NCBI GenBank assembly: GCA_036498165.1
Contig: DASXIE010000243.1
Span: forward strand, 1-59,651
Direction: 5' to 3'
DNA length: 59,651 nucleotides
Source: Caulobacteraceae bacterium
GTDB taxonomy: Bacteria; Pseudomonadota; Alphaproteobacteria; Caulobacterales; Caulobacteraceae
Under the pieces are notes generated by a model, which saw only the letters and a list, made by a program, of their open reading frames with translations, made no database searches and was not told the origin of the DNA. Of this stretch, positions 27,062 through 58,032 are shown piece after piece (position 1 is the first letter of the stretch; each line of letters starts with the position of its first letter). A program made the translations under genes and the position numbers.

Positions 27062-27145
27062 TCGCCGGCTGATCATTCACGCCCGTGGTCTCAAGACCCT
27101 GAACAGCCCCCCAGCCCCTGGGATCACGGGCAGATCAGTCGGCGA
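27062..27145 (+). ncRNA. Putative sRNA, copy 1: long hairpin with C-rich apical loop
   Basis: TCGCCGGCTGATC (27062-27074) pairs with GATCAGTCGGCGA (27133-27145), and GCCCGTGGTCTCA (27081-27093) pairs with TGGGATCACGGGC (27119-27131). All imperfect pairs are G-U on the + strand. Loop is AGACCCTGAACAGCCCCCCAGCCCC. Confidence 0.7.
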
Positions 27146-27159
27146 CTCGCCCTCTAGGT

Positions 27160-28398
27160 TCAGGCGACGGCGCTGGCCGAGCGGGGGGCGGCGTCCTCGC
27201 ATTCGGACGAGTTGGCCGCCCCGAGGCGGGCCTGGGCGGCGCTGTTCCAGGCTGAAACGCACGGAATCCGCCGCACGTCGCAGCGGACGGCGTAGCGTTC
27301 GGCGATCGTGCGCACCTCGGCGATCAGGCCCTCAGCCAGAGTGACGGGATTTAGGCCTAGGCCCAGGAACTTGTCGTTGGCGACCAGGAGGTTGTTCTCG
27401 TCGTCCTCATTCCGCGGGTTGGGCAGGAAATCGACCTTCGCCCCCGAGATGTCGGAGATCATCTTGGCCAGGTCGCGCACCCGGTGGGTTTCGGTCATCT
27501 GGTTGAGAATGTTGACACGCTCGCCGCGCCGGGGCGCGTTCTCGAGGGCGAGCTGGATGCACTTGACGGTATCCTGGATGTGGATGAAGGCCCGTGTCTG
27601 GCCGCCGGTGCCGTGGACCGTCAGGGGATAGCCCATGGCCGCCTGCATGACGAAGCGGTTGAGCACGGTGCCGTAATCGCCGTCGTAGTCGAAGCGGTTG
27701 ATCAGGCGGTCGTCGAGTTCGGTCTCGGCGGTCTGGGTTCCCCAAACGATGCCCTGGTGCAGGTCCGTGACCCGCAACTTGTCGTTCTTGTTGTAGAACA
27801 GGAAGAACAGCTGATCCTGGGTCTTGGTCATGTGGTAGATGCTGCCCGGATCCGGCGGATAGAGAATTTCCTTCTGCTTATCGCCTTCCGAGGTCTTCAG
27901 GGTGACGTTGAGATAGCCCTCAGGGATCTGCATCCCGGCGGTGCCGTAGCCATACACCCCCATGGTTCCCAGGTGCACGAGGTGCACATCCAGGCCACTC
28001 TCGACGATGGCTGCGCAAACGTCGTTGGTGGCGTTGAGGTTATTGTTGACCGTGTAGCGCTTGTGGCCGGACGACTTCATTGAATAAGGCGCGGCGCGTT
28101 GCTCCGCGAAATGAATGATCGCGTCCGGTCGGAACTCCTGGATCAGTCCAAGCAGGCGATGGTAATGTACGCCGACGGTAAAGCTGTGGACGATGATCCG
28201 GCGACCGGTGACTTCCTCCCAGGCCTCGACGCGCTCGCCGAGCGGGCGGATGGGGGTCAGGGAATCGGCCTCGAGCTCAATGTCGATGTGCCGGCGAGAC
28301 ATGTTGTCGACGATGACGATCTCATGGCCAAGCTTGGAAAGATGCAGGGCGGTCGGCCAGCCGCAGAAGCCGTCCCCGCCAAGTACGATGATCTTCAT
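27160..28398 (-). CDS. sqdB: UDP-sulfoquinovose synthase
   Basis: VLGGDGFCGWPTALHLS, HFAEQRAAPYSM, HLGTMGVYG, GSIYHMTK, DLHQGIVWG and RFDYDGDYGTVLNRF. Confidence 0.92.
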   Translation of the reverse strand: MKIIVLGGDGFCGWPTALHLSKLGHEIVIVDNMSRRHIDIELEADSLTPIRPLGERVEAWEEVTGRRIIVHSFTVGVHYHRLLGLIQEFRPDAIIHFAEQRAAPYSMKSSGHKRYTVNNNLNATNDVCAAIVESGLDVHLVHLGTMGVYGYGTAGMQIPEGYLNVTLKTSEGDKQKEILYPPDPGSIYHMTKTQDQLFFLFYNKNDKLRVTDLHQGIVWGTQTAETELDDRLINRFDYDGDYGTVLNRFVMQAAMGYPLTVHGTGGQTRAFIHIQDTVKCIQLALENAPRRGERVNILNQMTETHRVRDLAKMISDISGAKVDFLPNPRNEDDENNLLVANDKFLGLGLNPVTLAEGLIAEVRTIAERYAVRCDVRRIPCVSAWNSAAQARLGAANSSECEDAAPRSASAVA

Positions 28399-28649
28399 GA
28401 GGGGCCCTCGAGTTTGCGCCGGGTTACACGCCAAAAGCTCAATGCGCAACCGATGCGTAGAGACGCTGGTCAAGCGATTGTGATGCTGGCGGGGGCGCCT
28501 GAAGGCCGCGCGACGGCACGTGAAGTCGCCTTTGGGCGCGGCGTCGCCGGGGCGGGCGGGCGCGGAAACGCCGGCTTGGGGTTGCCAAGGTATTCATAAT
28601 CCTGTTGGAGTTTGCCAAGGTCGCGGGGCCACTTCGGGGAACAACAGCA

Positions 28650-29372
28650 ATGGAGCTGGCGAGAAGTGCGATCGGGCATGACGGCGCCGTGTTGGAAGGG
28701 CTCGACGCCGCGACTTTGATCGAACGCGTCATTGTCGATCGCTCATTTGGCCGGGTCGGCGTAGTGTCGTCTTTCGGGGCCGAGTCAGCTGTGCTTTTGC
28801 ATCTGGTGGCCCAGGTCGATACTCAGACGCCGGTATTGTTCATCGACACGGGCAAGCTGTTCGGCGAAACCTTGCGCTATGCTGAACGGCTTCAGGGACA
28901 ACTGGGCCTGACCGATCTTCGGATGCTCGAGCCCGACGCCGAGGACGTGGCGGTCGCCGACCAGCATGGTGATCTGTGGCGGGAGGACGCCGACGCCTGC
29001 TGTGCGGTCCGCAAGGTCGCGCCCCTCAGCCGGGCCTTGAACGAATTCGACACCTGGATCACCGGCCGCAAGCGCTACCAGGGCGCCACCCGGGCCGGCC
29101 TTGATAAGACCGAAGTCGTCGACGGCCGACTCAAGGTCAACCCGCTGGCGGCCTGGACGCGCGCCGACCTCGACGATTATTTCGCCGCCCACGACCTGCC
29201 GCGCCATCCCCTCGAGGCGGACGGGTTCCTCTCGATCGGCTGTTATACCTGCACCGAGCGGGTGCGCCTGGGCGAGGACCCGCGCGCCGGCCGCTGGCGG
29301 GGCCTTAACAAGACCGAATGTGGCATCCATCTGCCGGCCGGAAGCGTCGCCGCGAGGATGCCGCCGCGGTGA
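28650..29372 (+). CDS. cysH: APS/PAPS reductase (Fe-S-binding APS-reductase type)
   Basis: SSFGAES, DTG, CCAVRKVAPL, SIGCYTCT, RAGRW and KTECGIH. The CC...CxxC pattern is the [4Fe-4S] signature. Confidence 0.9.
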   Translation: MELARSAIGHDGAVLEGLDAATLIERVIVDRSFGRVGVVSSFGAESAVLLHLVAQVDTQTPVLFIDTGKLFGETLRYAERLQGQLGLTDLRMLEPDAEDVAVADQHGDLWREDADACCAVRKVAPLSRALNEFDTWITGRKRYQGATRAGLDKTEVVDGRLKVNPLAAWTRADLDDYFAAHDLPRHPLEADGFLSIGCYTCTERVRLGEDPRAGRWRGLNKTECGIHLPAGSVAARMPPR

Positions 29373-30451
29373 AGCCACGCGCCCTGGCGGGCGAGGCTAC
29401 CACAGGAAGACCAAGCGGGGCGATCCGGCGCGTGGCCATCGTGACGGCCGGCGAGAACCCTTCGTTCGACTATTACCTCGCCCCGCGGCTGGCCCTGAAT
29501 GCGGCGCCGCCGGTCGACAGGTTCGACCTTTCCGCGTCGCGGCGCGCCCGCGAGAGCGCCGATTGGCAAGGCGTCTTCCTGCTCTTCTGCCGTTATCTCA
29601 GCGACGGCTGGCTGCGCACCGCCCAGGCCCACGCCGGCGAACTGGCGGGCACCGGCCTCTTCATCGACGACGACTTCGAGGCCTTGGCCGCAGACAAGCG
29701 CAACCGCTGGCGCTACCGCTGGAAGCTGCGCAGACACGGCCTCCATCTGTGGCCGAAGCTCACGCCGCGTCTCCAGGGGCTATGGGTCTCCACGGCGCCC
29801 CTCGCCGAACTTTGGGCGCGAAGGCCCGGGGCGCCGGTCCCTCGCCTGACCCCGCCGCTGGCCGACGAAGAGGACCTTGCCAGCACGCCGTCCCGCCCAC
29901 AGCGACCCCTCATCGGCCTGCACGCCACCTCCTCCCACGGCGCCGACCAGCGCTGGTTGGGGCCCGTCGTGCGCGAGGTGCTCGCTGCCGACCCCAGAGT
30001 CGATTTCGAGGTAGTGGCCGACCCAGGCCGTGACCGGCTGTGGCGCGGCGAACCCAGGATCCGGGTGATCCCCTACCGTTCCTGGCCGGCCTACCGCGCC
30101 GACACCGCCGCCCACGGCCGCGACTTGCTGCTCGCCCCGCTGCAACCCGGCCCCGCCAACGCCGCACGCGCCTATGTGAAGCGCATCGACGCCGCCCGCT
30201 GCGGGGCGGCCCTCATGGTCTCCGATTCGGCGATCTTCCAGGTCAGCCCCGGTGAGGTGACTTTGGGCATGGTCGCGCCCCTGGAGGCTTCGGCCTGGGT
30301 CAAGGGTGTGCTTGGCCTCATCGGCGACGAGGCGCGCCGACAGAGCCTGATCGATCTCAACCGCGAGAAGCTCACCGTCGCGCGGCGGGCGGCCTCGGCC
30401 TTGTTCGAGCCCGAAGCCGCGGGCATGGATGGGACGTGGCGAGCGATCTGA
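29369..30451 (+). CDS. Putative GT-B fold glycosyltransferase
   Basis: GTGA overlap with cysH. FIDDD, IGLHATSSH and LAPL...N.AR..VKRIDAARCGA are typical of capsule-locus GT-B proteins. Confidence 0.6.
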   Translation: MKPRALAGEATTGRPSGAIRRVAIVTAGENPSFDYYLAPRLALNAAPPVDRFDLSASRRARESADWQGVFLLFCRYLSDGWLRTAQAHAGELAGTGLFIDDDFEALAADKRNRWRYRWKLRRHGLHLWPKLTPRLQGLWVSTAPLAELWARRPGAPVPRLTPPLADEEDLASTPSRPQRPLIGLHATSSHGADQRWLGPVVREVLAADPRVDFEVVADPGRDRLWRGEPRIRVIPYRSWPAYRADTAAHGRDLLLAPLQPGPANAARAYVKRIDAARCGAALMVSDSAIFQVSPGEVTLGMVAPLEASAWVKGVLGLIGDEARRQSLIDLNREKLTVARRAASALFEPEAAGMDGTWRAI

Positions 30452-31854
30452 CCATGCTGGGCGGGGCGCCGCCGTCGGCGACCTGGCGGCGCGCCCGCGA
30501 CCGGCTGACGCGGCGGTCGGCGCATCTGGTCGTATTCGGACCCGTCAATGCCCCGCGCCGGGTCTTGCGCGCCCTGGTCGGCGGACGGCTGTCGGCGATG
30601 GCGGAGGGATTCGATCCATCCTTCTATCTGGCCCAGGTACCGCCCGGACTGCCGCGCCGGCGGGCGCGGCGCGATCCCCTGCTGCACTACTGGCTGATCG
30701 GCGCCCGCCAGGGCCGCTGGCCGTCGCCCGGCTTCAAGGCTGGCTCTCCCGCTCCGCCATCGGCAGCTGGTGACGGGGTCGCCTTGCTGATCGACCACGG
30801 CCGGGGCGGGGGCAGCAGCCGCCTCCTGGCCCAATACGCTGGGAAGCTCGCCCAGCAGGGCTGGACCGTACTCGCCCCGCGCCGCGTCGGCCGCGAGACG
30901 CCACTGTTCGTCTTTCCCGAGGGGGACGACTGGCGGGTCTTCGATCTTATCGCCGACGGGACGGCCCTGGCCGATTTCGCCCGCGCCCGCCGGGTGAGCC
31001 TCCTCGTCGTCAACCATTTGATCGATCTGCCGCAGGACGCCGCCAGTTTGCTGATCCGCTTCGCCGATGAGATCGGCGCCACGCTCGAGGTGCTCCTGCA
31101 CGATTATTATCTCGCCTGTCCGCGTATCGACCTCATCGCCAGCGACGGGCTCTATTGTGGCCTGGCGCCGATGGAGACCTGCCGCTCGTGTCTGGCCGCT
31201 TCCGGCCCGGGGCTGAGCGGCGTGGATATTTCCGTCTGGCGCTCGAGTTCGGCGTCGCTGCTCGCCAAGGCGGCGCGCATCGTGGCCCCCAGCCAGGATC
31301 TTGCTGATCGCCTCGTCGCCGCCTTCCCCAACGTGCGCATAGATGTCGACGAACCGGAAGATGACAGCGCTCTTCCGGCCATATCCGCCCCGCCCCCGCT
31401 CGCCCTCGACGAAGCCATGCGGGTGCTGGTGCTGGGGGCCCTCAACCGCCCCAAAGGATTGGACGTGGTCATCGCGCTCGCCCGCGTGCTCTCGGTTCGC
31501 CGCGCGCCGGTAAGGATCACCGTCCTGGGTCCCGCTGCCGACGCCCGCGCCCTGCGCGGGGCCGGTGTGACGGTGCTGGGTCGCTATCCTCCCGAGGCGG
31601 TCCACGATCGATTGGCCACCGAGGCGCCCCACGTGATCTTTTTTCCCGCTGTCTGGCCCGAAACCTGGTCCTTTACACTCAGCGAGGCCCTGCGCTCCGA
31701 CGCCGAGATCCTCGCCTTTGATATCGGTGCGATCGCCAAGCGGCTGAAGCGTCTGGGGCGCGGACGGGTTATTCCCTATGCCGCGAGCAGCGATCCGCAC
31801 GCTCTGGCCGCGGTCTTTCTCGACCTGCGGGAGGAGATCGCCGCGAAGGGGTGA
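30436..31854 (+). CDS. GT4-like glycosyltransferase with N-terminal FD.xxYL...DPLxHY repeat
   Basis: LIDHGRGGG, LHDYYLACP, APS, KG and PETWSFTLSEAL...AFDIGA. Alternative ATG at 30454. Confidence 0.78.
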   Translation: MASDLTMLGGAPPSATWRRARDRLTRRSAHLVVFGPVNAPRRVLRALVGGRLSAMAEGFDPSFYLAQVPPGLPRRRARRDPLLHYWLIGARQGRWPSPGFKAGSPAPPSAAGDGVALLIDHGRGGGSSRLLAQYAGKLAQQGWTVLAPRRVGRETPLFVFPEGDDWRVFDLIADGTALADFARARRVSLLVVNHLIDLPQDAASLLIRFADEIGATLEVLLHDYYLACPRIDLIASDGLYCGLAPMETCRSCLAASGPGLSGVDISVWRSSSASLLAKAARIVAPSQDLADRLVAAFPNVRIDVDEPEDDSALPAISAPPPLALDEAMRVLVLGALNRPKGLDVVIALARVLSVRRAPVRITVLGPAADARALRGAGVTVLGRYPPEAVHDRLATEAPHVIFFPAVWPETWSFTLSEALRSDAEILAFDIGAIAKRLKRLGRGRVIPYAASSDPHALAAVFLDLREEIAAKG

Positions 31855-31963
31855 CCGTCGCAACGCCCCATATCACCGCCGGTTGCAATGCTCGGCTTCG
31901 GCCGTCTAATAGAACCGCTAGGGAGGCATCGCCGCACCGACGGCCGCCAAGGAGAGGTCACGA

Positions 31964-32995
31964 ATGGCGTTGAACGAGGCGGTCCTGCCGGCGGCTGTTC
32001 CTGGGCCAGTCGCGGAAAGGCTCGCGCTGCAGAAGCCGGCCGCCATGCGGATGGTCCAGCTCTATCCGCCCTTCGACCGCTACATGGGCGAAGCGCCGCC
32101 CGAGGTGCTCGCCACGCCCTCGATGATGAGCGAGAACGAGCGCGTCTTTCTATACAACCTTGTAAGGCGCTATTACACCGGGGCCGGGCGGGTGTTGGAC
32201 GCGGGGATATTCCTCGGCGGCTCGACCAACTGCTTCGCCGACGCGATCCGCGAGAATCCACGCTTCGATCGGATCACGGCCAAGTGGCCCAAGCCGGTGC
32301 TGTCGCTGGAGCGGGCGATGGTCAGCGCCACCATGCCCGCGTTCTTCAACCGTCACGGTATCGGCCTCAAATACAAATCCGGCGATTCCTTCGCCGACCT
32401 TCTGGAGAAGTATGTCGCGCCCTGCAAGGATCTCGTCGAACTGCGGATAGGCGATATTCTCGAGTGCGGGGAGATCAACGATCGCATAGAGATTTGCTTT
32501 CTTGATGTACTGAAGAATCCGAATATCGCGGCCTATGCGATCAAACAATACTTTCCGAGACTCATTCCAGGCAGGTCGATCGTCATCCAGCAGGATTATT
32601 TTTTTGAAGGACTACCCTTCATCAAGACCTATCAGGAATTTTTCGCCGACCAGTTCGAGTACGTGGGAGAAGTCGGTTCCAGCGCGATCTTCCGCTGCAT
32701 TGCCAAGGTCGATAAGGCGGCGATCGACCGCGTCGTCGGTGGATTGGCGCCCGAGGAACAGGTGCGCCTGGCCTCAATCGCCCTGCAGCGTTCCATAGAT
32801 CCGACCCGGCGATTCATGATGGCGATGTCCAAGACCCTGCTGATCCGCGAGCTGCATGGCGATGACGCGGCCCGCGCCTATCTCGAATTCGCCGAGGCGG
32901 AATATGCCGGCGAGATCGAGCCCGCCGCGCCGCAACGCCTGGCCGGGCCGCTCAAGGCCCTCCGCAAGCTGTGCGGTATGGAGGAGGCCGCCTAG
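31964..32995 (+). CDS. Class I SAM-dependent methyltransferase-like protein
   Basis: VLDAGIFLGGST motif I, GDI, IEICFLDVLK and LIPGRSIVIQQDY. GGAGAGG RBS. Confidence 0.7.
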   Translation: MALNEAVLPAAVPGPVAERLALQKPAAMRMVQLYPPFDRYMGEAPPEVLATPSMMSENERVFLYNLVRRYYTGAGRVLDAGIFLGGSTNCFADAIRENPRFDRITAKWPKPVLSLERAMVSATMPAFFNRHGIGLKYKSGDSFADLLEKYVAPCKDLVELRIGDILECGEINDRIEICFLDVLKNPNIAAYAIKQYFPRLIPGRSIVIQQDYFFEGLPFIKTYQEFFADQFEYVGEVGSSAIFRCIAKVDKAAIDRVVGGLAPEEQVRLASIALQRSIDPTRRFMMAMSKTLLIRELHGDDAARAYLEFAEAEYAGEIEPAAPQRLAGPLKALRKLCGMEEAA

Positions 32996-33003
32996 GAGTC
33001 CCC

Positions 33004-33834
33004 ATGTCGCTTTTCGATCTCTTCGGCCGGTCCGGAGCGCGGGCTTATCGCCCAAAGCCTGGAACGGCGGGGGCCGCCGCCATGGGGCTCATCCGGTGGA
33101 TGGACTCGGTGATCTTCATGGTCATCCACGATTTCGGTGACCGTTATCGGCAAAGCAAGCTCAGCGCCTTTTTCACGGTCTTCGAGCCCGTGGGCCTGAT
33201 CACTGTGCTGTCCCTGGCCCAGGTGGTCATCGGCGGCGGATCGCTGTGGCAGGACGCTCTCTTTCACACTACAGGCATCCTGCCCTACTACCTGTTCTTC
33301 CATGTCACCTTGCGGATCCGGGCCTCGGACGTGTCTCGCCTGCCGCCGCGAGTGACGCGGTTCGATCAATTCCTTTCCCACATTCTCAGCGAATTGATCG
33401 CCAAGAGCGCCATCGCGGCCCTGATGTTCTCGTTTTTCGCGATCATGAAGACAGCCAACGCCATTCCCTTCAATATAAGCGCCATCGTGCCGCCCCTGCT
33501 GCTGCTGTGCGTGATGGGTGTTGGGGTGGGAATGATCAACATTTTCATCGGCCACTTCTTTTCTGGCTGGACCTACATCTATGCCATCGTCGCCCGGGGG
33601 ATGATGGCCCTTTCAGGCGTGCTGATCCGGCCGGACATGATGCCGGTTCAGCTGAAGCACTTTGTTGTCTGGGACCCGCTCTTCCAGGCAATCACCTGGT
33701 TCCGCAGTGGCTGCTATCCGGGCTACCCGACAGACCTGCTGCACCCGGATTTCCTGATCTATTCGGTGTTCGGGATTCTCGGCGTGGGCGTACTACTCGA
33801 CGCCAGCGTGCGCGAGGTTCGATACACTCGCTAA
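33004..33834 (+). CDS. kpsM: Capsular polysaccharide ABC transporter permease (KpsM/ABC-2)
   Basis: About six TM segments, FEP, TGILPY, LSGV and WDPL...WFR. AGGAG RBS. Confidence 0.75.
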   Translation: MSLFDLFGRSGARAYRPKPGTAGAAAMGLIRWMDSVIFMVIHDFGDRYRQSKLSAFFTVFEPVGLITVLSLAQVVIGGGSLWQDALFHTTGILPYYLFFHVTLRIRASDVSRLPPRVTRFDQFLSHILSELIAKSAIAALMFSFFAIMKTANAIPFNISAIVPPLLLLCVMGVGVGMINIFIGHFFSGWTYIYAIVARGMMALSGVLIRPDMMPVQLKHFVVWDPLFQAITWFRSGCYPGYPTDLLHPDFLIYSVFGILGVGVLLDASVREVRYTR

Positions 33835-33976
33835 CCACGGCCTACGCCGCCCGCGGTTGCGGCGGCCAGATTGCGGAGATAACGTTTGCAAGACCTCAAA
33901 ATCATGATCAGCGCCTCTATGATGGCCAGTGGGGAGGAGGCGCCGGAAATGTTGTTCGCTTCACTGAGGACGCCGC

Positions 33977-35266
33977 ATGAGCGTGAGGACAATGCCTACC
34001 CGCTGGAGGCCAGCGCCATCTGAAGAGAAGGGGCGCGAGGCGGGTGGGAGGCGGCTCGCCGGATTGGCCGGTCTGGCCCTCCTCGCGGCGTGCTCGGCCC
34101 CGGCTCAGCCGGACCAGTTAGCCCAACCGCGGGGCGCCTGCTTCACCCGGGACGACAATCGCACGCCGCCGTTCGAGATCTTTCAGGTCAGTCCCCCGCC
34201 GCCGTACTCGCCGGCGACCCGCGACTATCCGGCGGCTAGCGCCGTCTATCCGGCGACGGACTACGTCACCGGCGCGATTCATTCCATCACCGCGCCCACT
34301 TTGCCCAGCACCAGCGGCTTCACCTTCCGCAAATATTTCCTGTTGTGGGTCAATCGCTGCATTCAGTTGCCCGGCGTGACTCCGGGCATCGACTCCTGCC
34401 GCAATCCGCGCACCAAGGGAAACGGCTACCGCCGCATGATCGATGACGGCGCCGGCGACAAGGTGCGGCCGGCGTTTTCCACTTACGCCAAAGCGGACGC
34501 CTGCACGCTCATCCAGGCGCGGCGCGTACTGGGCGAAACCGGCGGCCTCGAAACCAGCGCCAGGGCCGCCGGACTTACCTTATGGGACGGCGACGATCGC
34601 GTCCGCCTCGCGCCTTTGGCGCGACGCTTCGCAATGCCAAACGGACAGATGATGTCCTATTTCGTCGACACGTGCATTCTCGAGGCGGCGCCCGAGGCCC
34701 CCGACGCCAGCGGGATCGTGCTGGACTATGAGGTGTGGGACAATCGCACTCCAGCCCAGACCGTCGATATCGTACGCAATCTTGCTCGTCTGACGCACCA
34801 ACGCGGCAAGAAGCTGATTCTGATCACTGATCCCGTTCCCAAGCCTCCGAGCGGGCTGACGGCCGAAAGCGTCCCGGCGGTGATCGATGCGGTCGACGGT
34901 TTCGGCTCGGCCATCGCCACCGGCTCTTCCCCGGGCAATCCCTCCACTCATTACCCGGCGCGCGGGCGGATGCGGTCGCCATGGGAGGCCTATCAGACCC
35001 AACTCAGTGTAGTGACCGCCGGTGGTCGCAATCCACTGACGCCGCAAATGCGGCGCAAGCTGATCTGGAACATCGATCTCAACGATATCGCCCCACCTGA
35101 GGCACGACAGCTGCATGATGAAATCGTCCGTCAAGGCTACCGCGGCATGCTCTTGGCGCGCAATTTCCAGCGCGAGGGCGGGGCTTGCGACCGGCCGGTC
35201 AACCAGACCATCGCCTGTTTGGCGCTGGGCCGGTGCGACGGGCGGTTCGGCCTGGACAGGCACTGA
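33977..35266 (+). CDS. Hypothetical lipoprotein with possible TIM-barrel glycoside-hydrolase-like motif
   Basis: Lipobox LAAC after a hydrophobic stretch, DASGIVLDYE motif and several Cys pairs. Confidence 0.5.
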   Translation: MSVRTMPTRWRPAPSEEKGREAGGRRLAGLAGLALLAACSAPAQPDQLAQPRGACFTRDDNRTPPFEIFQVSPPPPYSPATRDYPAASAVYPATDYVTGAIHSITAPTLPSTSGFTFRKYFLLWVNRCIQLPGVTPGIDSCRNPRTKGNGYRRMIDDGAGDKVRPAFSTYAKADACTLIQARRVLGETGGLETSARAAGLTLWDGDDRVRLAPLARRFAMPNGQMMSYFVDTCILEAAPEAPDASGIVLDYEVWDNRTPAQTVDIVRNLARLTHQRGKKLILITDPVPKPPSGLTAESVPAVIDAVDGFGSAIATGSSPGNPSTHYPARGRMRSPWEAYQTQLSVVTAGGRNPLTPQMRRKLIWNIDLNDIAPPEARQLHDEIVRQGYRGMLLARNFQREGGACDRPVNQTIACLALGRCDGRFGLDRH

Positions 35267-35425
35267 CCGTCTTGTACGCAATGGCATGCGGCGGTTGGCG
35301 ACTTCCGGAAGTAAGCGACTTGGCTTTGCAGAACGAGCATGGCGCCTGTGTCATCTGGGATCCTATCACGCGACGAAGTTGTAAATGACGTTCTGGAAAA
35401 TGCTTTTGGCCATTGGCCCTAAGGC

Positions 35426-36844
35426 GTGAGACAATCGCAGCTCACGAAGATCGTTCGCGGCGCCGCCTCGAGACCGACATGGAACATGACGCTCCATTGG
35501 GGGCAGTCGCTCGCCTGCGGCGTACATGGGCAGCCGGCGCGGTCGGCCACCACTCACGGCCATAAAACATTCGGGTCCGGCGTCAAATCCATGAAGCCGG
35601 AAAACGTCTTCGGTCTGAACCACACGACTCGGCCTGGAACCACCACCGTCGCCCACCTGGCCGAAGACGATAACTACGCTTGGAGCGATCGGATTCCAGC
35701 CGGCGAGACTTCGATCACCCAGAGCCTCGACAGGATGTCGGTTCTGGCCGCAGCCTCGGGCGTGCCCGACGACGACAACATCTGGTTCGGCAGCGCGCCG
35801 GCGCGCGGGGCAATGCGGATGAGCCTGCTCACCCCGGACGCCAAGAACTGGCGGAATGTCGTCGATCATGTCTCAGCGTTCGCCGCTCTGGCCCGAGAGG
35901 CCGGGGCGACGCCGATTGTCCGCGATTTCGTCTTCACCCAGGGACAGGTGGATGTCCTGCTGCATACGGAATTTTCACAGTACCGTGCGCAGCTTCTGCA
36001 AATTGTCGATGAGGCGGACCGTTTGGCGCGAAACGTTACCGGCCAGGCGGAGCCGGTCATGACCTTCATCAATCAGGTCTCTCACGGGATCGCGCGCAAG
36101 GGCGGCGACATCGCCCAGGCACAGCTCGAAGCCACCTTTGCGGATTCCAGGGCCAAGCTGCTGATCCCCGACTATGTGTTGCCGCATTCCAGAGACGGCT
36201 TGCATCTGTCCAGCGAGGGATATGCGTTGCGCGGCGTCTATGAAGCGCGGGCGAAATTCTGGACCTTCTTCTGCGATGGACAGGGCGCCGTGACCGGCAT
36301 CCGGCCCTTGAGCGCCTGCTGGGCCGAGGGTCGATTCTACGTCAGATTCGAGGCGCCAACACCGCCGCTGCGCATCGGCCTCGAGGACATCGTCGTCGGC
36401 GCGCCGGACTGGAAGGCCACGCGCCAACATGGCTTTCGCGCCTTCGACCCGGATGGCGACATAGCCCTTGGCGATTTCCAAATCGGGCGCGACGGAGTCA
36501 CCTTAAGCTGCGCCGGCGAGCGCGCGCCGGGTTGTGGTTGCGTCTTCCGTGGCGGGATGGATTACCAATCTCAATCCAATCGAGGGGTTACCCAAGGTGG
36601 CGCTTGCACAGATCTGAAAGACAGCACCAACGAGGTTGTCAGTTTTGGTGACGGCGCGACACTGTTTCGGACTTGGTATCCGTGTCCGCATTTCTCCTTG
36701 GCCGTTCAGTCGACCTCAGAAGATCAATCCAGTTCAGGCCGCGCCTCATTCGCTTCCGTCGCTGGGGGCCCCGGGGCTGCGAAGGATCACGCCGCCCTTT
36801 TTCCGGCGGAATTTTCCATGCTAGGGAAGTCGCTGGCCTTTTGA
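35426..36844 (+). CDS. SGNH/sialate O-acetylesterase (SASA)-like protein
   Basis: WGQSLA (block I Ser), FTQGQVD (QGE-like) and DGLHL (DxxH). Confidence 0.6.
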   Translation: MRQSQLTKIVRGAASRPTWNMTLHWGQSLACGVHGQPARSATTHGHKTFGSGVKSMKPENVFGLNHTTRPGTTTVAHLAEDDNYAWSDRIPAGETSITQSLDRMSVLAAASGVPDDDNIWFGSAPARGAMRMSLLTPDAKNWRNVVDHVSAFAALAREAGATPIVRDFVFTQGQVDVLLHTEFSQYRAQLLQIVDEADRLARNVTGQAEPVMTFINQVSHGIARKGGDIAQAQLEATFADSRAKLLIPDYVLPHSRDGLHLSSEGYALRGVYEARAKFWTFFCDGQGAVTGIRPLSACWAEGRFYVRFEAPTPPLRIGLEDIVVGAPDWKATRQHGFRAFDPDGDIALGDFQIGRDGVTLSCAGERAPGCGCVFRGGMDYQSQSNRGVTQGGACTDLKDSTNEVVSFGDGATLFRTWYPCPHFSLAVQSTSEDQSSSGRASFASVAGGPGAAKDHAALFPAEFSMLGKSLAF

Positions 36845-36908
36845 GTTGAAACCGAGCCGGCCAGGACTCTAAGGAACGTCGAGCGAGGTCATAGTCTTAG
36901 AGGAAATC

Positions 36909-38552: not shown

Positions 38553-38748
38553 AGCGTGATGGCTTTGCATGGAACAGATGCGAAGTCCGAATCTGGCTCT
38601 GCCCTTCGAGTCGAGAACGAGATTCATCCTTCCGACGATTCCGTCCAAGACCATCCTGCTCCAGGGGGCGCCGGTCGCAACCTTGTAGCAACCTGTCGTG
38701 GCCGATAAGGTCGGCAATGTTCCCAAGCGTTTCTAAGAGGGTATCGGC

Positions 38749-40050: not shown

Positions 40051-40053
40051 GTG

Positions 40054-41688: not shown

Positions 41689-41786
41689 GAGAGCGGCGCG
41701 CGGATGTGGTCTATGCCCCTGGGAAGTGGTAACAAGGCCGGCCTCTCCAAGATCGTTCCCACTCACCTTCTTAAGCGAAGCGCATC

Positions 41787-43094: not shown

Positions 43095-43125
43095 TCGCTG
43101 CAAAGACTCGAGCGCAGGGGAGTTC

Positions 43126-45177: not shown

Positions 45178-45189
45178 AGCGCCCTGCGC

Positions 45190-45546
45190 TCAGGCTTCGC
45201 GCTGGAACTTCCTCATCCGTCGCACGGCTTCGACCACCGCTCCGAGAATGAAGGCCTTTTCTGTCTCGGTGGCCTCGGTCTCGAGGTGCTCCATGGCTTC
45301 GCGGAGAATGACCGGCAGGGCCAGGGCGTTCGAGCGTTTGCGCTGAATCTCCGCTTCCTTATAGCCGGCCACGACCCGCTCGACCTCGGCGCGCTCGTCG
45401 CCTTGGAGCTGTTCTTCCAGCGGCGCCTCGATTTCGAGGGTCATCTTCGACACCCGGCCCAAGGGGATGCGAGTGATCTTGCCTTCGTCGTCAGTCTCAA
45501 CTCTGAAAAAGCGAATAAACTTCGCGATATCAGAAAAGATCAGCAT
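45190..45546 (-). CDS. Small hypothetical cytoplasmic protein (118 aa)
   Basis: ATG at 45546 preceded by AGGGAG. Natural-looking charged helical sequence. Confidence 0.6.
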   Translation of the reverse strand: MLIFSDIAKFIRFFRVETDDEGKITRIPLGRVSKMTLEIEAPLEEQLQGDERAEVERVVAGYKEAEIQRKRSNALALPVILREAMEHLETEATETEKAFILGAVVEAVRRMRKFQREA

Positions 45547-45650
45547 ATTTGCTCCCTGGTGACTGTACGTCGAGGCCGCGAAACCCGCTCTTGGCGCACG
45601 ATCGCCCTCGCCGTTCTCATTGACGCGAGGCGTAGAGCTGTCGCTTTGTT

Positions 45651-47513
45651 TCATTCTACGAACGGGAGACTTAGACATTGGCCGAGCGCCGCAATGATTT
45701 TGGAGGTTTGCCCAATTTCATAAGCCCGTAGCACGTGGCGGCGGGGTCCCTCAAGGTCGCGCTTTCGCCATTTCGCGTCGCGGCCGAACAAATCCCGCCG
45801 GTAGGCAATCGCCGGCTTTTGTAGCACGGCGATCGTCAGGCCGCGGGCCTGGGCCTTGGCGAAGAACACCCAGTCAAAGGCTGCCACGTCGTCGTCGGCG
45901 AAACAGCCGATTTCGGCGAACCGGTCGCGGCGGATGGCGAAGTTGGCGTCGCCGAAGCCGTTGTAAAGCAGCCCGGCCCATCCGGCCTCACCCATGAAAA
46001 CCAGATCGGCCGCCGGAAGGCCCTGGCCTGGCGCGCCGTCGAACAGCGAGAGGGTGGAGACCACGATATCGATGCGGGGGTCCTCGAAGGCCGCGACCAG
46101 CCGGGCCAGGCCATCGTCGATGAAGAGGTTGTCGTCGTCGAGGAAGATGAGGATGTCGCCCCCGGCGTGCTCGGCGGCCAAGTTGCGGGCCCAGGGCTGG
46201 CGCGCCCCTGGACTGCCTTGGATGATGCGCACATCATCGCTTTCCAGGGCTCCCAGCGCATCCAGGGTCGCCGTTTCGCTGCCGGTGTCCACAACAATCG
46301 TGGTCAGGCCTGCGGTCCCGCCCCGACTGGCGAGCGCCGCGGCCAGCGCGTCCGGCCGGTCGCGATGGGTGATGCAAAGACTGGCCGAGCGGGTTTGGCG
46401 GGTCCGCACCACCGGGCTCGACCGACGCGCGGCGATCGCGGATTCAAAGACCTCCGGCCAGTCGGGAGTCTCGAAGGCCGGCGGCCTTTGGGCGACGACG
46501 CTGTCGAAATGATCGGCGAGATCGGCGAGGTCCGGATCGATGATGCTGGCGGCGCCGCTGACCCAGCTGGCCATGGGGTGGTGCGACGCCACCACGCTCG
46601 CCACGCCGGCGCTCAGGCAATCGGCGAGGATCACCTCGTCGTCGGCCGCGGCGCCTGGGAAGACCGCCAGGACGCCGGGACGGCGAAGATGGTCCAGCAC
46701 CTTGCCGGGGCGGGATTCGTCGACCTGGGTGAATGCGAATCGCCAGTCGCGGGCGCGCCGGCCGAGCATGGCCTTGCCGAGGCCCGCCGTCCCCTCGCGC
46801 CACGGGCCAAGGAAGGTCACCGTTCGGCCCGTCAGAACGCCCTCGTGGCCCAGCCGCTCGATCACGGTCAGGAAGGCGTCGGCGCCGTGGCGTCCGGAGG
46901 CTGGACCCACGCAGACGATTTCCTGGGTCCGGCCGCCTCTCGAGGCGGTGCGAGGCGATGGACGGAACGGGAAGGCGAGGCGGATCTCGCCGGGCCGATC
47001 CGCGCTCGCGTCGGGCCGCGCCGTGGCATCGGCGAGGCGCCGGGCGGCGCTCTCCATGGCTTCGGCGATCACCGCCTCGACCCCAACCGGCTCGATGTCG
47101 CCCAGTTCCATGCGCCGTGCGGCGCCCGCCTCGCCCCACAGGACCATGGCGGTATCGCCAAGACTCTCGCCCAGATCGCGGCTCATCAGGGCCGGCTGGA
47201 GGATACCGCCTCCTAGCGGGGCCAGGACGATGTCGGGCGGATTGGCTGCCAGCCGACGCCAGAGTTGGTGGCCGGCGCGCAGAGAGAGGCTGAGATGAGC
47301 CGCCGCCGGGCCGGCGAGGATTGGCGGGTCACTCCAGGCGAGGGTGGTAACACGAGCCGGGAGTTCGGTGGCCGCGCCGGGTAGGGCGAAGACTTCGACC
47401 TCAAATCCGCCCCCGGCCAGATCCTCGGCCACGCGGGCGAAACCGGCCGCGAGGTTGGCGGCTCGCCATTCGTCGGCGCCGACCGGCAGAACGAGCGCGG
47501 CCTTGGAGGTCAC
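45651..47513 (-). CDS. Glycosyltransferase: degenerate GT-B N-terminus plus GT2 C-terminus
   Basis: SLCITHRDR, VVDTGS, ARN, IFLDDDN and GDANF. GTGA overlap with the upstream gene. Confidence 0.75.
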   Translation of the reverse strand: MTSKAALVLPVGADEWRAANLAAGFARVAEDLAGGGFEVEVFALPGAATELPARVTTLAWSDPPILAGPAAAHLSLSLRAGHQLWRRLAANPPDIVLAPLGGGILQPALMSRDLGESLGDTAMVLWGEAGAARRMELGDIEPVGVEAVIAEAMESAARRLADATARPDASADRPGEIRLAFPFRPSPRTASRGGRTQEIVCVGPASGRHGADAFLTVIERLGHEGVLTGRTVTFLGPWREGTAGLGKAMLGRRARDWRFAFTQVDESRPGKVLDHLRRPGVLAVFPGAAADDEVILADCLSAGVASVVASHHPMASWVSGAASIIDPDLADLADHFDSVVAQRPPAFETPDWPEVFESAIAARRSSPVVRTRQTRSASLCITHRDRPDALAAALASRGGTAGLTTIVVDTGSETATLDALGALESDDVRIIQGSPGARQPWARNLAAEHAGGDILIFLDDDNLFIDDGLARLVAAFEDPRIDIVVSTLSLFDGAPGQGLPAADLVFMGEAGWAGLLYNGFGDANFAIRRDRFAEIGCFADDDVAAFDWVFFAKAQARGLTIAVLQKPAIAYRRDLFGRDAKWRKRDLEGPRRHVLRAYEIGQTSKIIAALGQCLSLPFVE

Positions 47514-48166
47514 AGGCTCCGAGCGCCGAGCCAGGCCAGGCGCCGGCCGCTGTCGGCGTCGACGATCTCCACTCCCCCTTCCAGCATCCGCAGCGGGGCC
47601 GGCAAGGCGAGGATGAATCCATGGAAGCCGTCGCCCGCCTCCCCGCGCCGCCGCCCTCGGTGCAAAGAGGCGGTGGTTGACGAGACGAAATCGTCGCCCC
47701 GGCGGGCGCGCAGCCTCAGGCGCCGCAGCGGTTCGTGGCGATCATGGACGTAGCCGGTGAGGCGGGGATCCCCCGGATTTGGCGGATCGAGCGACAGCAT
47801 CACCGACCCGGCGCGGAACGCGCGGCCTGAGCCCCGCGGCGCCGACCAGGGACTGCCGCTGAGGGCTCGCCCGCTGTCGCTCCACAGGCATTCGACGCCT
47901 CCCTCGGCGTCCGGCAGGACGGCGAGCGGAATCGAGAAGCCATGCCAGCCGTCGCAGGCGCCAGCGGCCTGAAGGTCGGCCCGGAACCGGTCGGCGAGAA
48001 TCGAACGCCGCGCTCCTGAGGCCGTGGCGAGGGTGACCTCGAGGGGGCGTCCGGGCCTCGCCGGATCGTAGGTCCAGCCGCAGATTCGATCATCGCGGAC
48101 GCCCTCGAACCAGCCAAGCCGGCCGTCGATGGGACGCTCGAGGTCGGACGCGCCGGAGGCGTACAT
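47510..48166 (-). CDS. Hypothetical protein made of two beta-rich repeats (GW..D ... A...R.D...GDG.HGF)
   Basis: Two internal copies of a motif that also occurs at the C-terminus of the 49115-52309 protein. Confidence 0.7.
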   Translation of the reverse strand: MYASGASDLERPIDGRLGWFEGVRDDRICGWTYDPARPGRPLEVTLATASGARRSILADRFRADLQAAGACDGWHGFSIPLAVLPDAEGGVECLWSDSGRALSGSPWSAPRGSGRAFRAGSVMLSLDPPNPGDPRLTGYVHDRHEPLRRLRLRARRGDDFVSSTTASLHRGRRRGEAGDGFHGFILALPAPLRMLEGGVEIVDADSGRRLAWLGARSL

Positions 48167-48176
48167 GCGGCCCTGG

Positions 48177-49106: not shown

Positions 49107-49114
49107 CTTGCCGC

Positions 49115-52309: not shown

Positions 52310-52455
52310 ATAAAAATTTGCGCCGTCAATTCTAAACGGTCTAGAACAGGTTTAGTGAATGCCTGCGGGCGGCGCCGCCCATCGATCTCGCTGAAGCGCC
52401 CCGTGTTTCAACTTTGTAGCTTACCGCTATCATTTCCTGACGACGGTTCCAACCT

Positions 52456-54054
52456 TCAACCGTGGCGAATTCGCAAAGAGCCAGCGCTCGCCAAGCTCAT
52501 TAGCGCGCGAACCGCCCGTCGGCCAAGCATCGCCGGCTCGAAGATCACGATCTCGTCAACCCCCATCTGCCTCAACAATCCCGCCGTTGTCCCCGGCGCC
52601 GCGTCAAGCCGCAATGCCGGAAGGTTCGGAGTGTTCCCGGCCCGCGGCGAAACGATGTCGAAAAGGTCCGCGGCGCCGGCGAATTTCCTTAAGCTGAGAT
52701 CATCCGCCTCCGGCGCCCCGTGCACCAGGCGCCCCGAGTGCCCGGCTCGGGCGATGCGCGCCAGGTCGAGGTTGGCGCGGACCGATGACAGAGAGTCGGC
52801 GCGGTTGAAGGCCCCGATCCGTTCCCGATAGCCGGGGTGTTTGGCCTCCATGGCCGCCATACCTTTGGCCAGAAGTCCGTGGCGTTCCTCGCCGAAGCTG
52901 CGTGATCCGATATGGCTGACGAAGGTGTCGGCCGCCGCCAGGCTGCGCCAGCCGCGCCTCGCGGCTCGCAGGCAGAAGTCGTTTTCCTCTCCATAGCCGC
53001 GGGGAAAGGCGGCTTCGTCGAAGGGGCCGACTGAGTCGAGGCAGTCGCGCCGCACAAAGAGACAGAAGCCGACGCCAGTGGGGATTTCGACGGGACCGAG
53101 GGCCAGGCGAGCGGCCAGGGCGGCCAACTCAGCGTGGCTCAGCTCCAGGGGCGCGGGATTGTCCCGCAGGCGGATAGGGTAGCTGAGGATTGTCGCGGCG
53201 TTGGACAGCGGGGTGACCGTTCCGATATTGCCTGCCCCGTGAGCGTGGGCGCGCAGCCGGTCCAGCCAACCGTCATGGACCTGGCAGTCGGCGTTGAGCA
53301 GAACGACATCGCGGCCTGGCCCAGCCGCGAGGCCGAGGTTGGCCGTGGCCGTGAACCCGAGGTTGGCCTCGTTGGCCTGACGGGCGATGAGGCCGAGCGC
53401 CTCCAGTCTCGCGAGATCGGCGGTCAAATCCGGCTCGGGGGAGGCGTCGTCGATGATCAGTAGCCTGAAGTCGCGCGCGACCCTGGCGCTCAGCACGCTG
53501 TGAATGGCGCCAAGGGTTTCGGCGCGGCCGCGATAGACGGGCATCACCACGTCGATATCGCCGGCAAGTTCGGCCCGGCCGACAAGACCGGTAAAGTCGG
53601 GGGCGATCCTCGCCGGCGCGGGCGGGGGCGTCAGGCGGCCCTCGCGCCAGCCCCGCTCGACGAAATGGCGGACCGGATCCCAGCCGGCCAGGCGGACATC
53701 TGGATTATCCGCCAGGTAGGCCTCGGCGTCGAAGCCCTCGGCCAGGCCATCGGCTCGCCGGTTAAGGATGAAGTGGACGAACGGATCGGCGTCGGGCGCG
53801 AGGCCGGCCAGGGCGCGATAGCGCTCGCCGTCGAAACGGGGCTGCGGCGAGGGCGAGCCCGGATTGGCCAGGTAGTGGCTGATGAGCGCCCGCTCGCCGA
53901 GGCCGGACAACTTGGCCGCGGCGGCGTAGGCGTAGGCGTCGAAGAGACCGGAGCCGCGGATGTGATCGGCCAGCAGGGCGCGGTTCGGCCAGGCGGCGAT
54001 GAGACGCCGCTCAAGGCGGCGAACCCGGCGCGCGATGGCTCGTTTCAACCTCAT
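52456..54054 (-). CDS. GT2 glycosyltransferase with N-terminal FD.xxY repeats
   Basis: FDAYAY, FDGERY and FDAEAYLADNPDV repeats. VVMPVY, DDAS, NLGF, LLNAD and GYGEENDFCLR. Confidence 0.82.
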   Translation of the reverse strand: MRLKRAIARRVRRLERRLIAAWPNRALLADHIRGSGLFDAYAYAAAAKLSGLGERALISHYLANPGSPSPQPRFDGERYRALAGLAPDADPFVHFILNRRADGLAEGFDAEAYLADNPDVRLAGWDPVRHFVERGWREGRLTPPPAPARIAPDFTGLVGRAELAGDIDVVMPVYRGRAETLGAIHSVLSARVARDFRLLIIDDASPEPDLTADLARLEALGLIARQANEANLGFTATANLGLAAGPGRDVVLLNADCQVHDGWLDRLRAHAHGAGNIGTVTPLSNAATILSYPIRLRDNPAPLELSHAELAALAARLALGPVEIPTGVGFCLFVRRDCLDSVGPFDEAAFPRGYGEENDFCLRAARRGWRSLAAADTFVSHIGSRSFGEERHGLLAKGMAAMEAKHPGYRERIGAFNRADSLSSVRANLDLARIARAGHSGRLVHGAPEADDLSLRKFAGAADLFDIVSPRAGNTPNLPALRLDAAPGTTAGLLRQMGVDEIVIFEPAMLGRRAVRALMSLASAGSLRIRHG

Positions 54055-54390
54055 CCGCGATCGGGTCGAGCGAAAAAATCGGCCGTCAGGCGCTTGCGCT
54101 CTGGCCCGGTGTTGGCCCCTTCGAGGCGCCGGATGGCGCTTTCGGTAGGGGCGATGGCGGCGAAGCCGGCCCGCTCGATCAGTCGGCGCAGGGATGACGT
54201 CAAGGCAACGGCTCCGCTCCACGCCCGTCCGCATGTTCGGCTTTGTAGCCGAGGATTGCGGTCGCCGGCGACCGTCCGGCCAGGGGCGTGACTTCCCCGA
54301 CACGGACCGAAATTCATTAAGAAGTGGCAACGATCGGCCGTGAAAAGACCTTATTTCGGTCGTCCGGCCGCCGGGTTACGGGTCGATGTT

Positions 54391-54547
54391 CGGGTCGTCG
54401 GCTGCTCGGGGCGCTTCTGATCCCGGACCCTGAACAGCCCCCCCAGCCCCCCTGGATTGGCGGGTCCCGGACAGCCGACGCACCGCCTTTGCAGAGACGG
54501 CCCCATGAGATGCGAAGCCCCGCGGTCAGGCGTGACCGCGGGGTTTT
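54391..54547 (+). ncRNA. Putative sRNA, copy 2: hairpin with the same C-rich loop, ending in a terminator
   Basis: CGTCGGCTG (54396-54404) pairs with CAGCCGACG (54472-54480). Inner TCGGGGC/GTCCCGG and CTGATCC/GGATTGG stems use G-U pairs. Loop is GACCCTGAACAGCCCCCCCAGCCCCCC. Confidence 0.72.

Positions 54548-55338: not shown

Positions 55339-58032
<2,694 letters not shown>

What the first reader, a model, noticed from the sequence alone, without database searches (positions are those of the whole stretch)
27062..54547. Two paralogous C-rich-loop RNA hairpins bracket the 27 kb polysaccharide island
Seen: GACCCTGAACAG-C6-AG-C4-TGGGAT (27095-27124) and GACCCTGAACAG-C7-AG-C6-TGGAT (54426-54457) occur in direct orientation just outside the first and last island genes. 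Each forms the apical loop of an ~85-95 nt hairpin. The stems are homologous but diverged in a structure-preserving way: CGCCGGCTG/CAGTCGGCG versus CGTCGGCTG/CAGCCGACG, giving a C-G to U-A compensatory pair and a G-U to G-C change. The G-U pairs work only on the + strand. Inference: these are two copies of a trans-acting sRNA whose unpaired C-rich loop targets G-rich mRNA leaders. The island either inserted into or between sRNA copies, or arrived with its own paralog. That would make the sRNA gene an integration or exchange anchor for capsule loci, in the way tRNAs usually are. C-rich-loop sRNAs are known in alphaproteobacteria; BjrC1505/StsR-like families are candidates from memory and are unverified.
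Basis: partly seen in the sequence, partly recalled or inferred. Interest (0 to 1): 0.85.

Follow-up and report, generated by a model that had tools for sequence, protein, structure and literature searches.

The report
Capsule locus splits twin stress sRNAs
The two hairpins are copies of a known Caulobacter small RNA that often sits as a tandem pair, and the capsule genes likely landed in the gap between them rather than using them as integration sites; the RNA likely belongs to one envelope-stress family that was named separately in Caulobacter, Bradyrhizobium and Agrobacterium.

Summary
Both hairpins match Rfam CC3664 (RF01530) end to end, though below its gathering score, and the stem covaries across homologs. 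In C. crescentus the same slot holds an annotated, island-free tandem pair, CCNA_R0088/R0092, both strongly ChvI-dependent.

The anchor model is not supported:
- 17 of 78 genomes of the genus carry the pair in tandem with nothing between.
- Each copy has its own promoter and a self-complementary stem.
- The island has no integrase, and 18 of 19 loci with a related capsule glycosyltransferase lack the RNA.
- A sister species has the island at the same site with its centre swapped and copy a decayed.

The capsule cluster most likely entered the gap of an older pair.

The more interesting result is that the same gene slot, strand, C-rich loop core and 11-bp-periodic promoter recur across Caulobacterales and many other Alphaproteobacteria. 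They also occur at Bradyrhizobium BjrC174 and Agrobacterium PmaR, which was published as genus-restricted. These are likely one family. Targets in this genome were not found.

The parts
26574..26915 (-). DUF2794 gene; left core flank, divergent from the sRNA in nearly all relatives
   Evidence: Pfam PF10984; synteny
27003..27038 (+). Promoter element of copy a: four 3-bp boxes at 11-bp period (GCC, ACC, GCC, GCC); likely ChvI site
   Evidence: Second-best genome-wide hit (36.5 bits, next 11.6) of a matrix built without the window rows; box conservation
27064..27146 (+). sRNA copy a (DUF2794-side paralog): long hairpin with C-rich apical loop at 27095-27124; no terminator
   Evidence: RF01530 27064-27199, 46.1 bits; model R1 51.8 bits; z -5.0; no terminator
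27160..28398 (-). SqdB-like (UDP-sulfoquinovose synthase-like) gene, first island gene; its stop codon abuts copy a
   Evidence: NF041015 E 5.7e-96, below the curated cut-off; 97% identical in G074
27122..31848 (.). Left arm of the island (sqdB-like, PAPS reductase, two unknown genes), shared with sister species G074
   Evidence: 80.6% nucleotide identity over 4.75 kb
31849..45720 (.). Exchanged centre of the island: KpsM-, KpsD/Wza-, KpsT- and KpsE-like export genes, GSCFA, GT61 and others; replaced in G074 by a different, oppositely oriented set
   Evidence: G074 counterparts only 26-44% amino-acid identity
45721..54063 (-). Right arm of the island (glycosyltransferases, epimerase), shared with G074
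   Evidence: 67-78% nucleotide and 60-85% amino-acid identity
54337..54372 (+). Promoter element of copy b: four boxes at 11-bp period (GCC, ACC, GTC, GCC); likely ChvI site
   Evidence: Best genome-wide hit, 51.8 bits
54397..54551 (+). sRNA copy b (DUF1223-side paralog): hairpin 54397-54479 with loop 54426-54457, linker, and GC-rich terminator-like hairpin 54515-54546 with a short U tail
   Evidence: RF01530 54397-54546, 57.5 bits; R1 88.4 bits; terminator found by a loose script but not by the consensus scan; hairpin identical in G074
54563..55312 (-). DUF1223 gene; right core flank, followed by acnA (55339-58110)
   Evidence: Pfam PF06764 and aconitase families

Best explanation
The two hairpins are paralogous copies of the CC3664 (CCNA_R0088/R0092) small RNA, each with its own conserved promoter, likely switched on by ChvI under envelope stress and likely pairing with G-rich mRNA stretches through the C-rich loop; the capsule cluster likely entered the gap of an older tandem pair without using either copy as an attachment site.

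Shown here: family match, covariation, the promoters, tandem pairs in island-free relatives, the same island site in sister species G074 with a swapped centre and a decayed copy a, and no integrase in the island.

Shown in papers for orthologs only: ChvI dependence and ChvI binding for R0088/R0092, and loop-dependent target control for PmaR.

Inferred: expression and ChvI control in this organism, base-pairing as the mode of action, and the order of events. That order is: the pair is older; the island arrived once in the ancestor of this genome and G074, by recombination that was not site-specific; the centre was later exchanged by homologous recombination within the island's own conserved arms.
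For: Family; NA1000 table row CCNA_03779<- R0088-> R0092-> CCNA_03780<-.

Covariation on a MAFFT-only alignment of 78 distinct rows: 93.1% of cells paired, 13 of 23 pairs with double changes, score 0.335 vs 0.225 shuffled (0/500) and at most 0.152 when slid. On a wider set of 40 rows, 9 of 9 pairs show double changes.

Tandem pairs with nothing between: 17 of 78 genus genomes (16 without unpublished G002), gaps 99-445 nt.

Ancestry of copy b: it groups with the DUF1223-side copies of its own species clade (96/85 support; species tree). G076, G083 and G095 in that clade keep both paralogs without this island. Copy a has the a-type letter at two of three diagnostic promoter positions and copy b the b-type letter at all three.

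No crossover in the loop: native stems fold at -46.1/-43.6 versus -29.7/-36.9 kcal/mol when halves are exchanged at the loop.

G074. Capsule relatives without the RNA: 18 of 19 loci; in G101 the cluster lies between ftsA and ftsZ.

ChvI: R0088 and R0092 rank 3 and 5 among genes down in the chvI mutant (log2 6.1 and 5.2), and the R0088 promoter is a highlighted ChIP peak. A ChvG-type sensor domain is present in this genome.
Against: Neither copy reaches Rfam's gathering score.

Copy a sits on a long branch and its position is unresolved. A tree holding the two window copies together is not rejected (AU p 0.21), and its grouping with other a copies had only 50% bootstrap in one run and was not recovered in another.

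The Caulobacter ChvI motif proposed in PMC9731502 (TTGC-N3-GCAA) is not what these promoters show; the fit is to the S. meliloti GCC-N8-GCC consensus quoted there.

Target scanning did no better than shuffled loops. RIL-seq partners of R0088/R0092 are scattered and mostly from a single library. Hfq enrichment is weak (log2 1.4 and 1.2).

The whole species clade has the pair split at this gap, so one ancestral break followed by later events cannot be told from repeated breaks. Only two species carry the island at this site.
Confidence: 0.75

Rival explanations
1. Anchor model: the sRNA gene serves as an attachment or exchange site, like a tRNA, and the duplicate arose or arrived with the island.
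For: The copies share 24 of 25 nt at the loop, the size of an att core. The left island edge lies about 12 nt from hairpin a. A tree joining the two window copies is not rejected. The locus breaks often: cargo upstream in G086, a MATE gene in G094, other neighbours in G007, G032, G068, G093, G099 and G101.
Against: Tandem pairs without an island in 17 of 78 genomes and in C. crescentus. The shared 25 nt is the family-invariant loop, present in 390 of 401 family genomes. No integrase among the island ORFs, which fill the island. The copies are only 54% identical over promoter plus hairpin and are not hybrids. G074 keeps the island although copy a lost its loop, and its exchange points lie inside the arms. 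Related clusters lack the RNA.
Confidence: 0.07
2. The gap is a recurrent, tolerated landing and breakage site because it lies between two self-contained transcription units. The capsule locus is kept there for a regulatory reason, for example ChvI-driven read-through from terminator-less copy a running antisense into the sqdB-like gene.
For: Copy a has an intact promoter, no terminator, and converges on the sqdB-like gene. Every split pair in the clade breaks at this gap.
Against: The terminator of copy a is also missing in island-free relatives (G076, G083, G095, G015, G075, G096, G005, G027, G010 by the script's rule). G074 lost copy a and damaged its promoter yet kept the island.
Confidence: 0.12
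3. The RNA works by binding a protein through its invariant loop rather than by pairing with mRNAs.
For: The loop core is far more conserved than the stems across orders, no reproducible RIL-seq partner is seen, and no target signal was found.
Against: In PmaR, a four-base change in the same loop core abolished regulation of several mRNAs, and direct binding was tested in vitro (PMC6234868 passages). R0088/R0092 were not assayed under inducing conditions in that RIL-seq.
Confidence: 0.12
4. The link to PmaR and BjrC174 is convergence: unrelated C-rich sRNAs arose in the same intergenic slot.
For: My wider model R2 does not detect PmaR. The Atu_C10 and BjrC174 models do not find the window copies in a genome-wide search. 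PmaR's outer stem folds differently. GspR was reported not to rise under acid stress.
Against: Same slot, same strand, identical 10-nt loop core and the same 11-bp-periodic promoter. There is a chain of intermediates: R2 finds the BjrC174 locus at 31 bits (E 1.8e-4) and the BjrC174 model weakly hits PmaR (24 bits). The exact core lies in the slot in 10 of 28 DUF2794 loci of that order, against 0 in both controls.
Confidence: 0.2

Closest known systems
CC3664 (Rfam RF01530) = CCNA_R0088, with its tandem paralog CCNA_R0092, Caulobacter crescentus
   Same: Full-length model match; same DUF2794/DUF1223/acnA slot, strand, loop and hairpin-linker-terminator layout; two paralogs in direct orientation.
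   Different: Here 27 kb of capsule genes separate the copies, copy a lacks a terminator, both score below gathering, and the second C-rich loop of the terminator is absent.
BjrC174 (Rfam RF02355), Bradyrhizobiaceae
   Same: Lies in the same DUF2794-DUF1223 interval on the same strand, with the same loop core and periodic promoter boxes. Reported as abundant, with no mapped sigma-type promoter.
   Different: Different stems; its model scores window copy b at only 13 bits.
PmaR = Atu_C10 (Rfam RF02497), Agrobacterium
   Same: Same four-gene neighbourhood and strand in 14 of 17 primer hits; identical loop core; three-box promoter in 9 of 13; higher in acid minimal medium; loop needed for target control.
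   Different: Published as restricted to Agrobacterium; outer stem arranged differently; not detected by my models; its targets are not shown for Caulobacterales.
GspR = SmelC775, Sinorhizobium meliloti
   Same: Lies between SMc03844 and SMc03845, next to the gene numbers I recall for acnA; Hfq-independent, and its last stem-loop represses cspA5.
   Different: Sequence and flank identity were not tested here; not acid-induced; the paper states that Agrobacterium lacks a homolog.
tRNA/tmRNA-anchored genomic islands; flank-anchored capsule loci of the kps/cps type
   Same: A foreign, lower-GC capsule cluster between conserved genes. The conserved arms with an exchanged centre work like serotype-switching capsule loci (established knowledge, not from a call).
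   Different: No integrase, no partial target duplication, no tRNA; both RNA copies are whole, diverged genes.
GsrN and CrfA/SisA-D of C. crescentus
   Same: C-rich-loop or sibling sRNAs of the same family of organisms.
   Different: Different loci and control: GsrN is sigma-T-dependent; CrfA has a G/A-rich loop; SisA-D are alpha-r8 RNAs.

Membership tests
CC3664 / RF01530 (R0088/R0092) | Score at or above the Rfam gathering threshold (60 bits) | tested here: not met
   46.1 and 57.5 bits. Only 13 of the 33 matching genomes pass it, so the threshold is narrow for this genus.
CC3664 / RF01530 (R0088/R0092) | Full-length sequence and structure match with significant E-value | tested here: met
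   Model positions 1-136/136, E 1.6e-6 and 7.4e-9; genome-wide E 2.8e-6 and 1.3e-8
CC3664 / RF01530 (R0088/R0092) | Position between DUF2794 and DUF1223/acnA, divergent from DUF2794 | tested here: met
CC3664 / RF01530 (R0088/R0092) | Covarying long stem with invariant C-rich loop | tested here: met
CC3664 / RF01530 (R0088/R0092) | 3' intrinsic terminator | tested here: inconclusive
   Present in copy b by a loose rule, not called by the consensus scan; absent in copy a
CC3664 / RF01530 (R0088/R0092) | Expressed as a + strand small RNA | not testable with these tools
   No RNA holder listed; shown for the C. crescentus orthologs only
ChvI regulon | GCC-type direct repeats at 11-bp spacing upstream | tested here: met
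   In 62 promoters: box 1 GCC in 50, box 3 GYC in 58, box 4 GCC in 62 (box 2 was the anchor). Strict four-box pattern only 9 times in the genome.
ChvI regulon | ChvI binding and ChvI-dependent expression in this organism | not testable with these tools
   Shown for R0088/R0092 in C. crescentus
BjrC174 / PmaR (RF02355, RF02497) | Significant match of their covariance models to the window copies | tested here: not met
   13 bits for BjrC174; nothing at these loci
BjrC174 / PmaR (RF02355, RF02497) | Shared slot, strand, loop core and promoter boxes | tested here: met
Integrase-mobilised island anchored at an RNA gene | Integrase gene in or beside the island | tested here: not met
   Pfam and NCBIfam scans of the island ORFs
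Integrase-mobilised island anchored at an RNA gene | Single copy in island-free kin and a near-identical partial duplicate at one end | tested here: not met
   Tandem pairs in 17 of 78 genomes; two whole genes at 54% identity
Integrase-mobilised island anchored at an RNA gene | Excised circle or empty site | tested here: inconclusive
   Only contigs were available. One contig bridges the left junction at the same depth as the island, probably from the source sample.
BjrC1505 / StsR | Rfam match | tested here: not met
   No such hit at E up to 10

The most novel reading that the evidence does not exclude
CC3664/R0088-R0092, BjrC174, PmaR and probably GspR are one ancient alphaproteobacterial sRNA family, fixed beside DUF2794. 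It keeps a single C-rich loop core and a ChvI-type promoter, and serves as the conserved RNA arm of the ChvG-ChvI envelope-stress response. Four RNAs published as lineage-specific would then be orthologs, and the two most ChvI-dependent sRNAs of Caulobacter would gain a testable function from PmaR (cell wall and motility genes).
Probability: 0.6. Interest if true: 0.65.

Novelty: new member of a known kind. Interest (0 to 1): 0.42.

Why it matters
As an island-anchor claim it does not matter: the layout follows from an ordinary tandem sRNA pair interrupted by a capsule locus.

The wider family does matter. ChvG-ChvI is the main envelope-stress system of Alphaproteobacteria, and its two top sRNA outputs in C. 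crescentus have no known function (R0092 'not known'). If they are orthologs of PmaR and BjrC174, a conserved post-transcriptional arm has been hidden under separate names. PmaR's tested loop then gives exact mutations and candidate pathways to test in a harmless model organism.

The pair of sister species also gives a clean case of capsule-type exchange within conserved arms in uncultured soil Caulobacteraceae.

Tried and rejected
Rfam at gathering thresholds over the window found nothing; the family shows only in E-value mode.

High-copy repeat: rejected, there are two copies per genome. tRNA anchor: none in the window. The repeat finder did not list the pair among its top 20 families.

GsrN, CrfA and SisA-D were considered and rejected.

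Sigma-70 and terminator consensus scans found nothing at either copy.

Target prediction with the loop against 2,686 crudely called start regions: best, 10th and 40th energies -37.1, -30.2, -27.6, versus -31 to -35, -29 to -30 and -26 to -27 for four shuffles. Uninformative.

The promoter matrix found no other strong site in the genome, so it does not test the ChvI regulon.

AU tests could not place copy a. G015 falls outside the clade in the marker tree on 330 columns, although its gene neighbours match the clade. Eight genomes were dropped from that tree for low coverage.

Expression: no RNA holder listed. Small-share runs were not interpreted.

Landt 2008, Landt 2010 and Ratib 2018 are not held. 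The GspR supplements did not contain the loop core, so GspR stays a lead. Model R2 missed PmaR. No Rfam scan was made of the 27 loci.
Full report
Observation. The exact 12-mer occurs only at these two places in the 3.07 Mb, 315-contig genome. Both + strand hairpins fold better than shuffles (z -5.0 and -2.7), but the minus strand of copy b does as well (z -2.76), so folding does not fix the strand. The interval is a Kps-type capsule cluster with a SqdB-like gene at its left end and glycosyltransferases at its right; no integrase was found among its ORFs and no tRNA in the window.

What the RNA is. Rfam gives nothing at gathering scores. In E-value mode both copies match RF01530, Caulobacter sRNA CC3664, over all 136 positions at 46.1 and 57.5 bits against a cut-off of 60. 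A supplementary table of PMC11724286 shows the C. crescentus locus as CCNA_03779, R0088, R0092, CCNA_03780: two annotated sRNAs about 100 nt apart, both with this loop. On a MAFFT-only alignment of 78 distinct genus sequences, 93.1% of cells pair and 13 of 23 pairs show double changes; 0 of 500 shuffles reach the covariation score. The innermost three-pair helix does not covary. The exact 14-mer loop occurs in 71 of 78 genus genomes and in 390 of 401 family genomes, with the reversed control in 17 by hand count.

Promoter and control. Each copy is preceded by four 3-bp boxes at 11-bp period. Among 62 promoters, box 1 is GCC in 50, box 3 GYC in 58 and box 4 GCC in 62; box 2 was the anchor. A matrix built from 56 promoters, without the window rows, ranks the two window sites first and second in the genome (51.8 and 36.5 bits; next 11.6), so both copies are whole genes. 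The spacing fits the S. meliloti ChvI consensus GCC-N8-GCC quoted in PMC9731502, but not that paper's own Caulobacter motif. In that paper the R0088 promoter is a highlighted ChIP peak, and R0088 and R0092 rank 3 and 5 among genes down in the chvI mutant. R0088 also rises 7.7-fold in a fur mutant. A ChvG-type sensor domain is present in this genome. ChvI control here is inferred.

Test of the anchor model. I fetched the DNA around the pattern and Rfam matches in the genus. By hand count, 36 of 78 genomes have one copy between DUF2794 and DUF1223, and 17 have a tandem pair with nothing between; one of the 17, G002, is unpublished and the claim stands on the other 16. Gaps are 99-445 nt. The rest are split, cut by contig ends or unmatched.

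The window genome and G074 are sisters (support 0.997) inside a clade with G076, G083, G095, G034, G029 and G081. Copy b groups with the DUF1223-side copies of that clade (96/85), and G076, G083 and G095 keep both paralogs without this island. Against this, copy a is on a long branch, and a tree holding the two window copies together is not rejected (p 0.21). The copies are 54% identical over promoter plus hairpin. Exchanging halves at the loop weakens both folds, so they are not recombination hybrids.

The island's history. G074 has a cluster of about 32 kb at the same site. The arms are shared (27122-31848 at 80.6%; 45721-54063 at 67-78%), while the centre is replaced by export genes of 26-44% identity in the opposite orientation, plus different sugar genes. 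Its copy a has lost the 5' stem and loop. Of 19 loci with relatives of the largest island glycosyltransferase, 18 have no copy of the RNA within the DNA held; the one that does repeats a locus already counted. In G101 the related cluster lies between ftsA and ftsZ. The simplest history is one insertion into the gap of an older pair, then exchange of the centre through the island's own arms. One contig of the probable source sample bridges the left junction at the island's depth; this checks the assembly, not excision.

A wider family. My model R1 finds the RNA in 100 of 151 genomes of the order. In 15 of 18 fetched loci from other families DUF2794 lies within about 250 nt upstream. At class level R1 finds 7 of 151. 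Of 30 class-level DUF2794 loci (the best-scoring of 167), 14 carry the loop core within one mismatch on the divergent strand, one of them probably by chance, against 0 on the other strand. In the order that holds BjrC174, 10 of 28 loci carry the exact core, in a hairpin loop, against 0 in two controls; several loci show nothing.

Rfam BjrC174 sits in this slot at 175 bits. PmaR (C10) lies between atu2683 and atu2684. Its probe primer found 17 metagenome stretches, 14 of them in the Bax1/DUF2794/DUF1223/acnA neighbourhood on the same strand with the same loop core; the four scanned match Atu_C10 at 113-121 bits. A three-box promoter precedes 7 of 18 order loci, 16 of 19 class loci and 9 of 13 PmaR loci, and 0 of the downstream controls. 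Against orthology: R2 misses PmaR, and the two Rfam models miss the window copies in genome-wide searches. An earlier AI note (e1-9735582) pointed to GspR and had already tied BjrC174 to GspR in another genome. I confirmed only GspR's published position between SMc03844 and SMc03845; that these are the same flanks is my recall.

Mechanism. Likely: envelope stress activates ChvI, which binds the periodic boxes; the RNA folds into a long stable stem that presents the C-rich loop for pairing with G-rich mRNA segments. The support is by orthology: in PmaR a four-base loop change abolished control of murB, murI, cheD, ampC and others. No target was found for this genome. RIL-seq partners in C. crescentus are scattered and mostly from one library; I saw 18 of 27 rows for R0088 and all 12 for R0092.

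Literature seen.
- Passages only: PMC5869019, PMC11005374, PMC8224329, PMC6120978, PMC12864828, PMC3384568, PMC4842269, PMC10659215, PMC3927594.
- Passages plus one section: PMC5988900.
- Parts 1-3 of 11 plus supplement rows: PMC12559287.
- Supplement rows and a main-text search with no hit: PMC11724286.
- Passages plus part 1 of Table S2: PMC9731502 (one scanned file was not searchable).
- Part 1 of 6, passages and the oligo table: PMC6234868.
- Passages and a supplement search: PMC5928217.
- Not held: Landt 2008, Landt 2010, Ratib 2018. Figures were not visible.
Searches showed no paper joining these RNAs. One search listed only 40 of 1,735 papers, one listed review naming both PmaR and Caulobacter was not read, and subscription journals are missing. 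The PmaR paper calls it restricted to Agrobacterium, and the GspR paper says Agrobacterium lacks a homolog. One search listed no paper whose title or abstract start points to a capsule locus anchored at an sRNA.

Verdict. A real feature and a new member of a known kind. The anchor idea is unlikely (0.07). The unification of separately named sRNAs into one ChvI-linked family is the part worth following (probability 0.6). Overall interest 0.42.

Noticed in passing
window 27160-54054; L125-L142: The capsule cluster couples a SqdB-like enzyme to Kps-type export and a large GT4/GT2 protein. The same set recurs in Novosphingobium, Reyranella, Tardiphaga and Caulobacter sp. S45 records, which suggests a sulfoquinovose-containing capsule. 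One paper search found only an archaeal genome paper.
   Followed up: partly
G101:C15, about 89,000-120,000 (L148-L150): A related capsule cluster sits inside the cell-division cluster between ftsZ and ftsA, with no sRNA copy nearby.
   Followed up: partly
G074, L104 about 12730-12920: Copy a is a pseudogene: about 50 nt covering the 5' stem and loop are gone and the promoter boxes are damaged, while the hairpin of copy b is identical to the window's.
   Followed up: yes
L028, L035, L037-L042 and others: A third, dispersed paralog class without DUF2794/DUF1223 neighbours, with variant promoter boxes and no evident terminator, occurs in many genomes of the genus.
   Followed up: no
3' parts of most homologs, e.g. 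L003, L004, L186-L188: The linker and terminator loop often carry a second C-rich, anti-Shine-Dalgarno-like motif; the window's copy b and most b copies of its clade lack it.
   Followed up: no
G076, G083, G095, G015, G034, G029: The sister clade splits the pair at the same gap by a rearrangement: an alkyl sulfatase gene lies upstream of copy b, and a fatty-acid desaturase lies at or near the 3' side of copy a in G076, G083 and G015.
   Followed up: partly
G604:C2:147655-148059 (L190, L195): A tandem pair of the RNA in another alphaproteobacterial family, about 140 kb from its DUF2794 gene; tandem duplication recurs.
   Followed up: no
window 17109-20546 (-): A 1,145-aa GH18 / polysaccharide deacetylase / GT2 fusion and a LytTR gene sit between sucC and mdh in the TCA gene cluster.
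   Followed up: no
L226, L228, L235, L236: The Rfam ybhL leader lies upstream of the Bax1-family gene at PmaR loci; it was not called at gathering score in the window.
   Followed up: no
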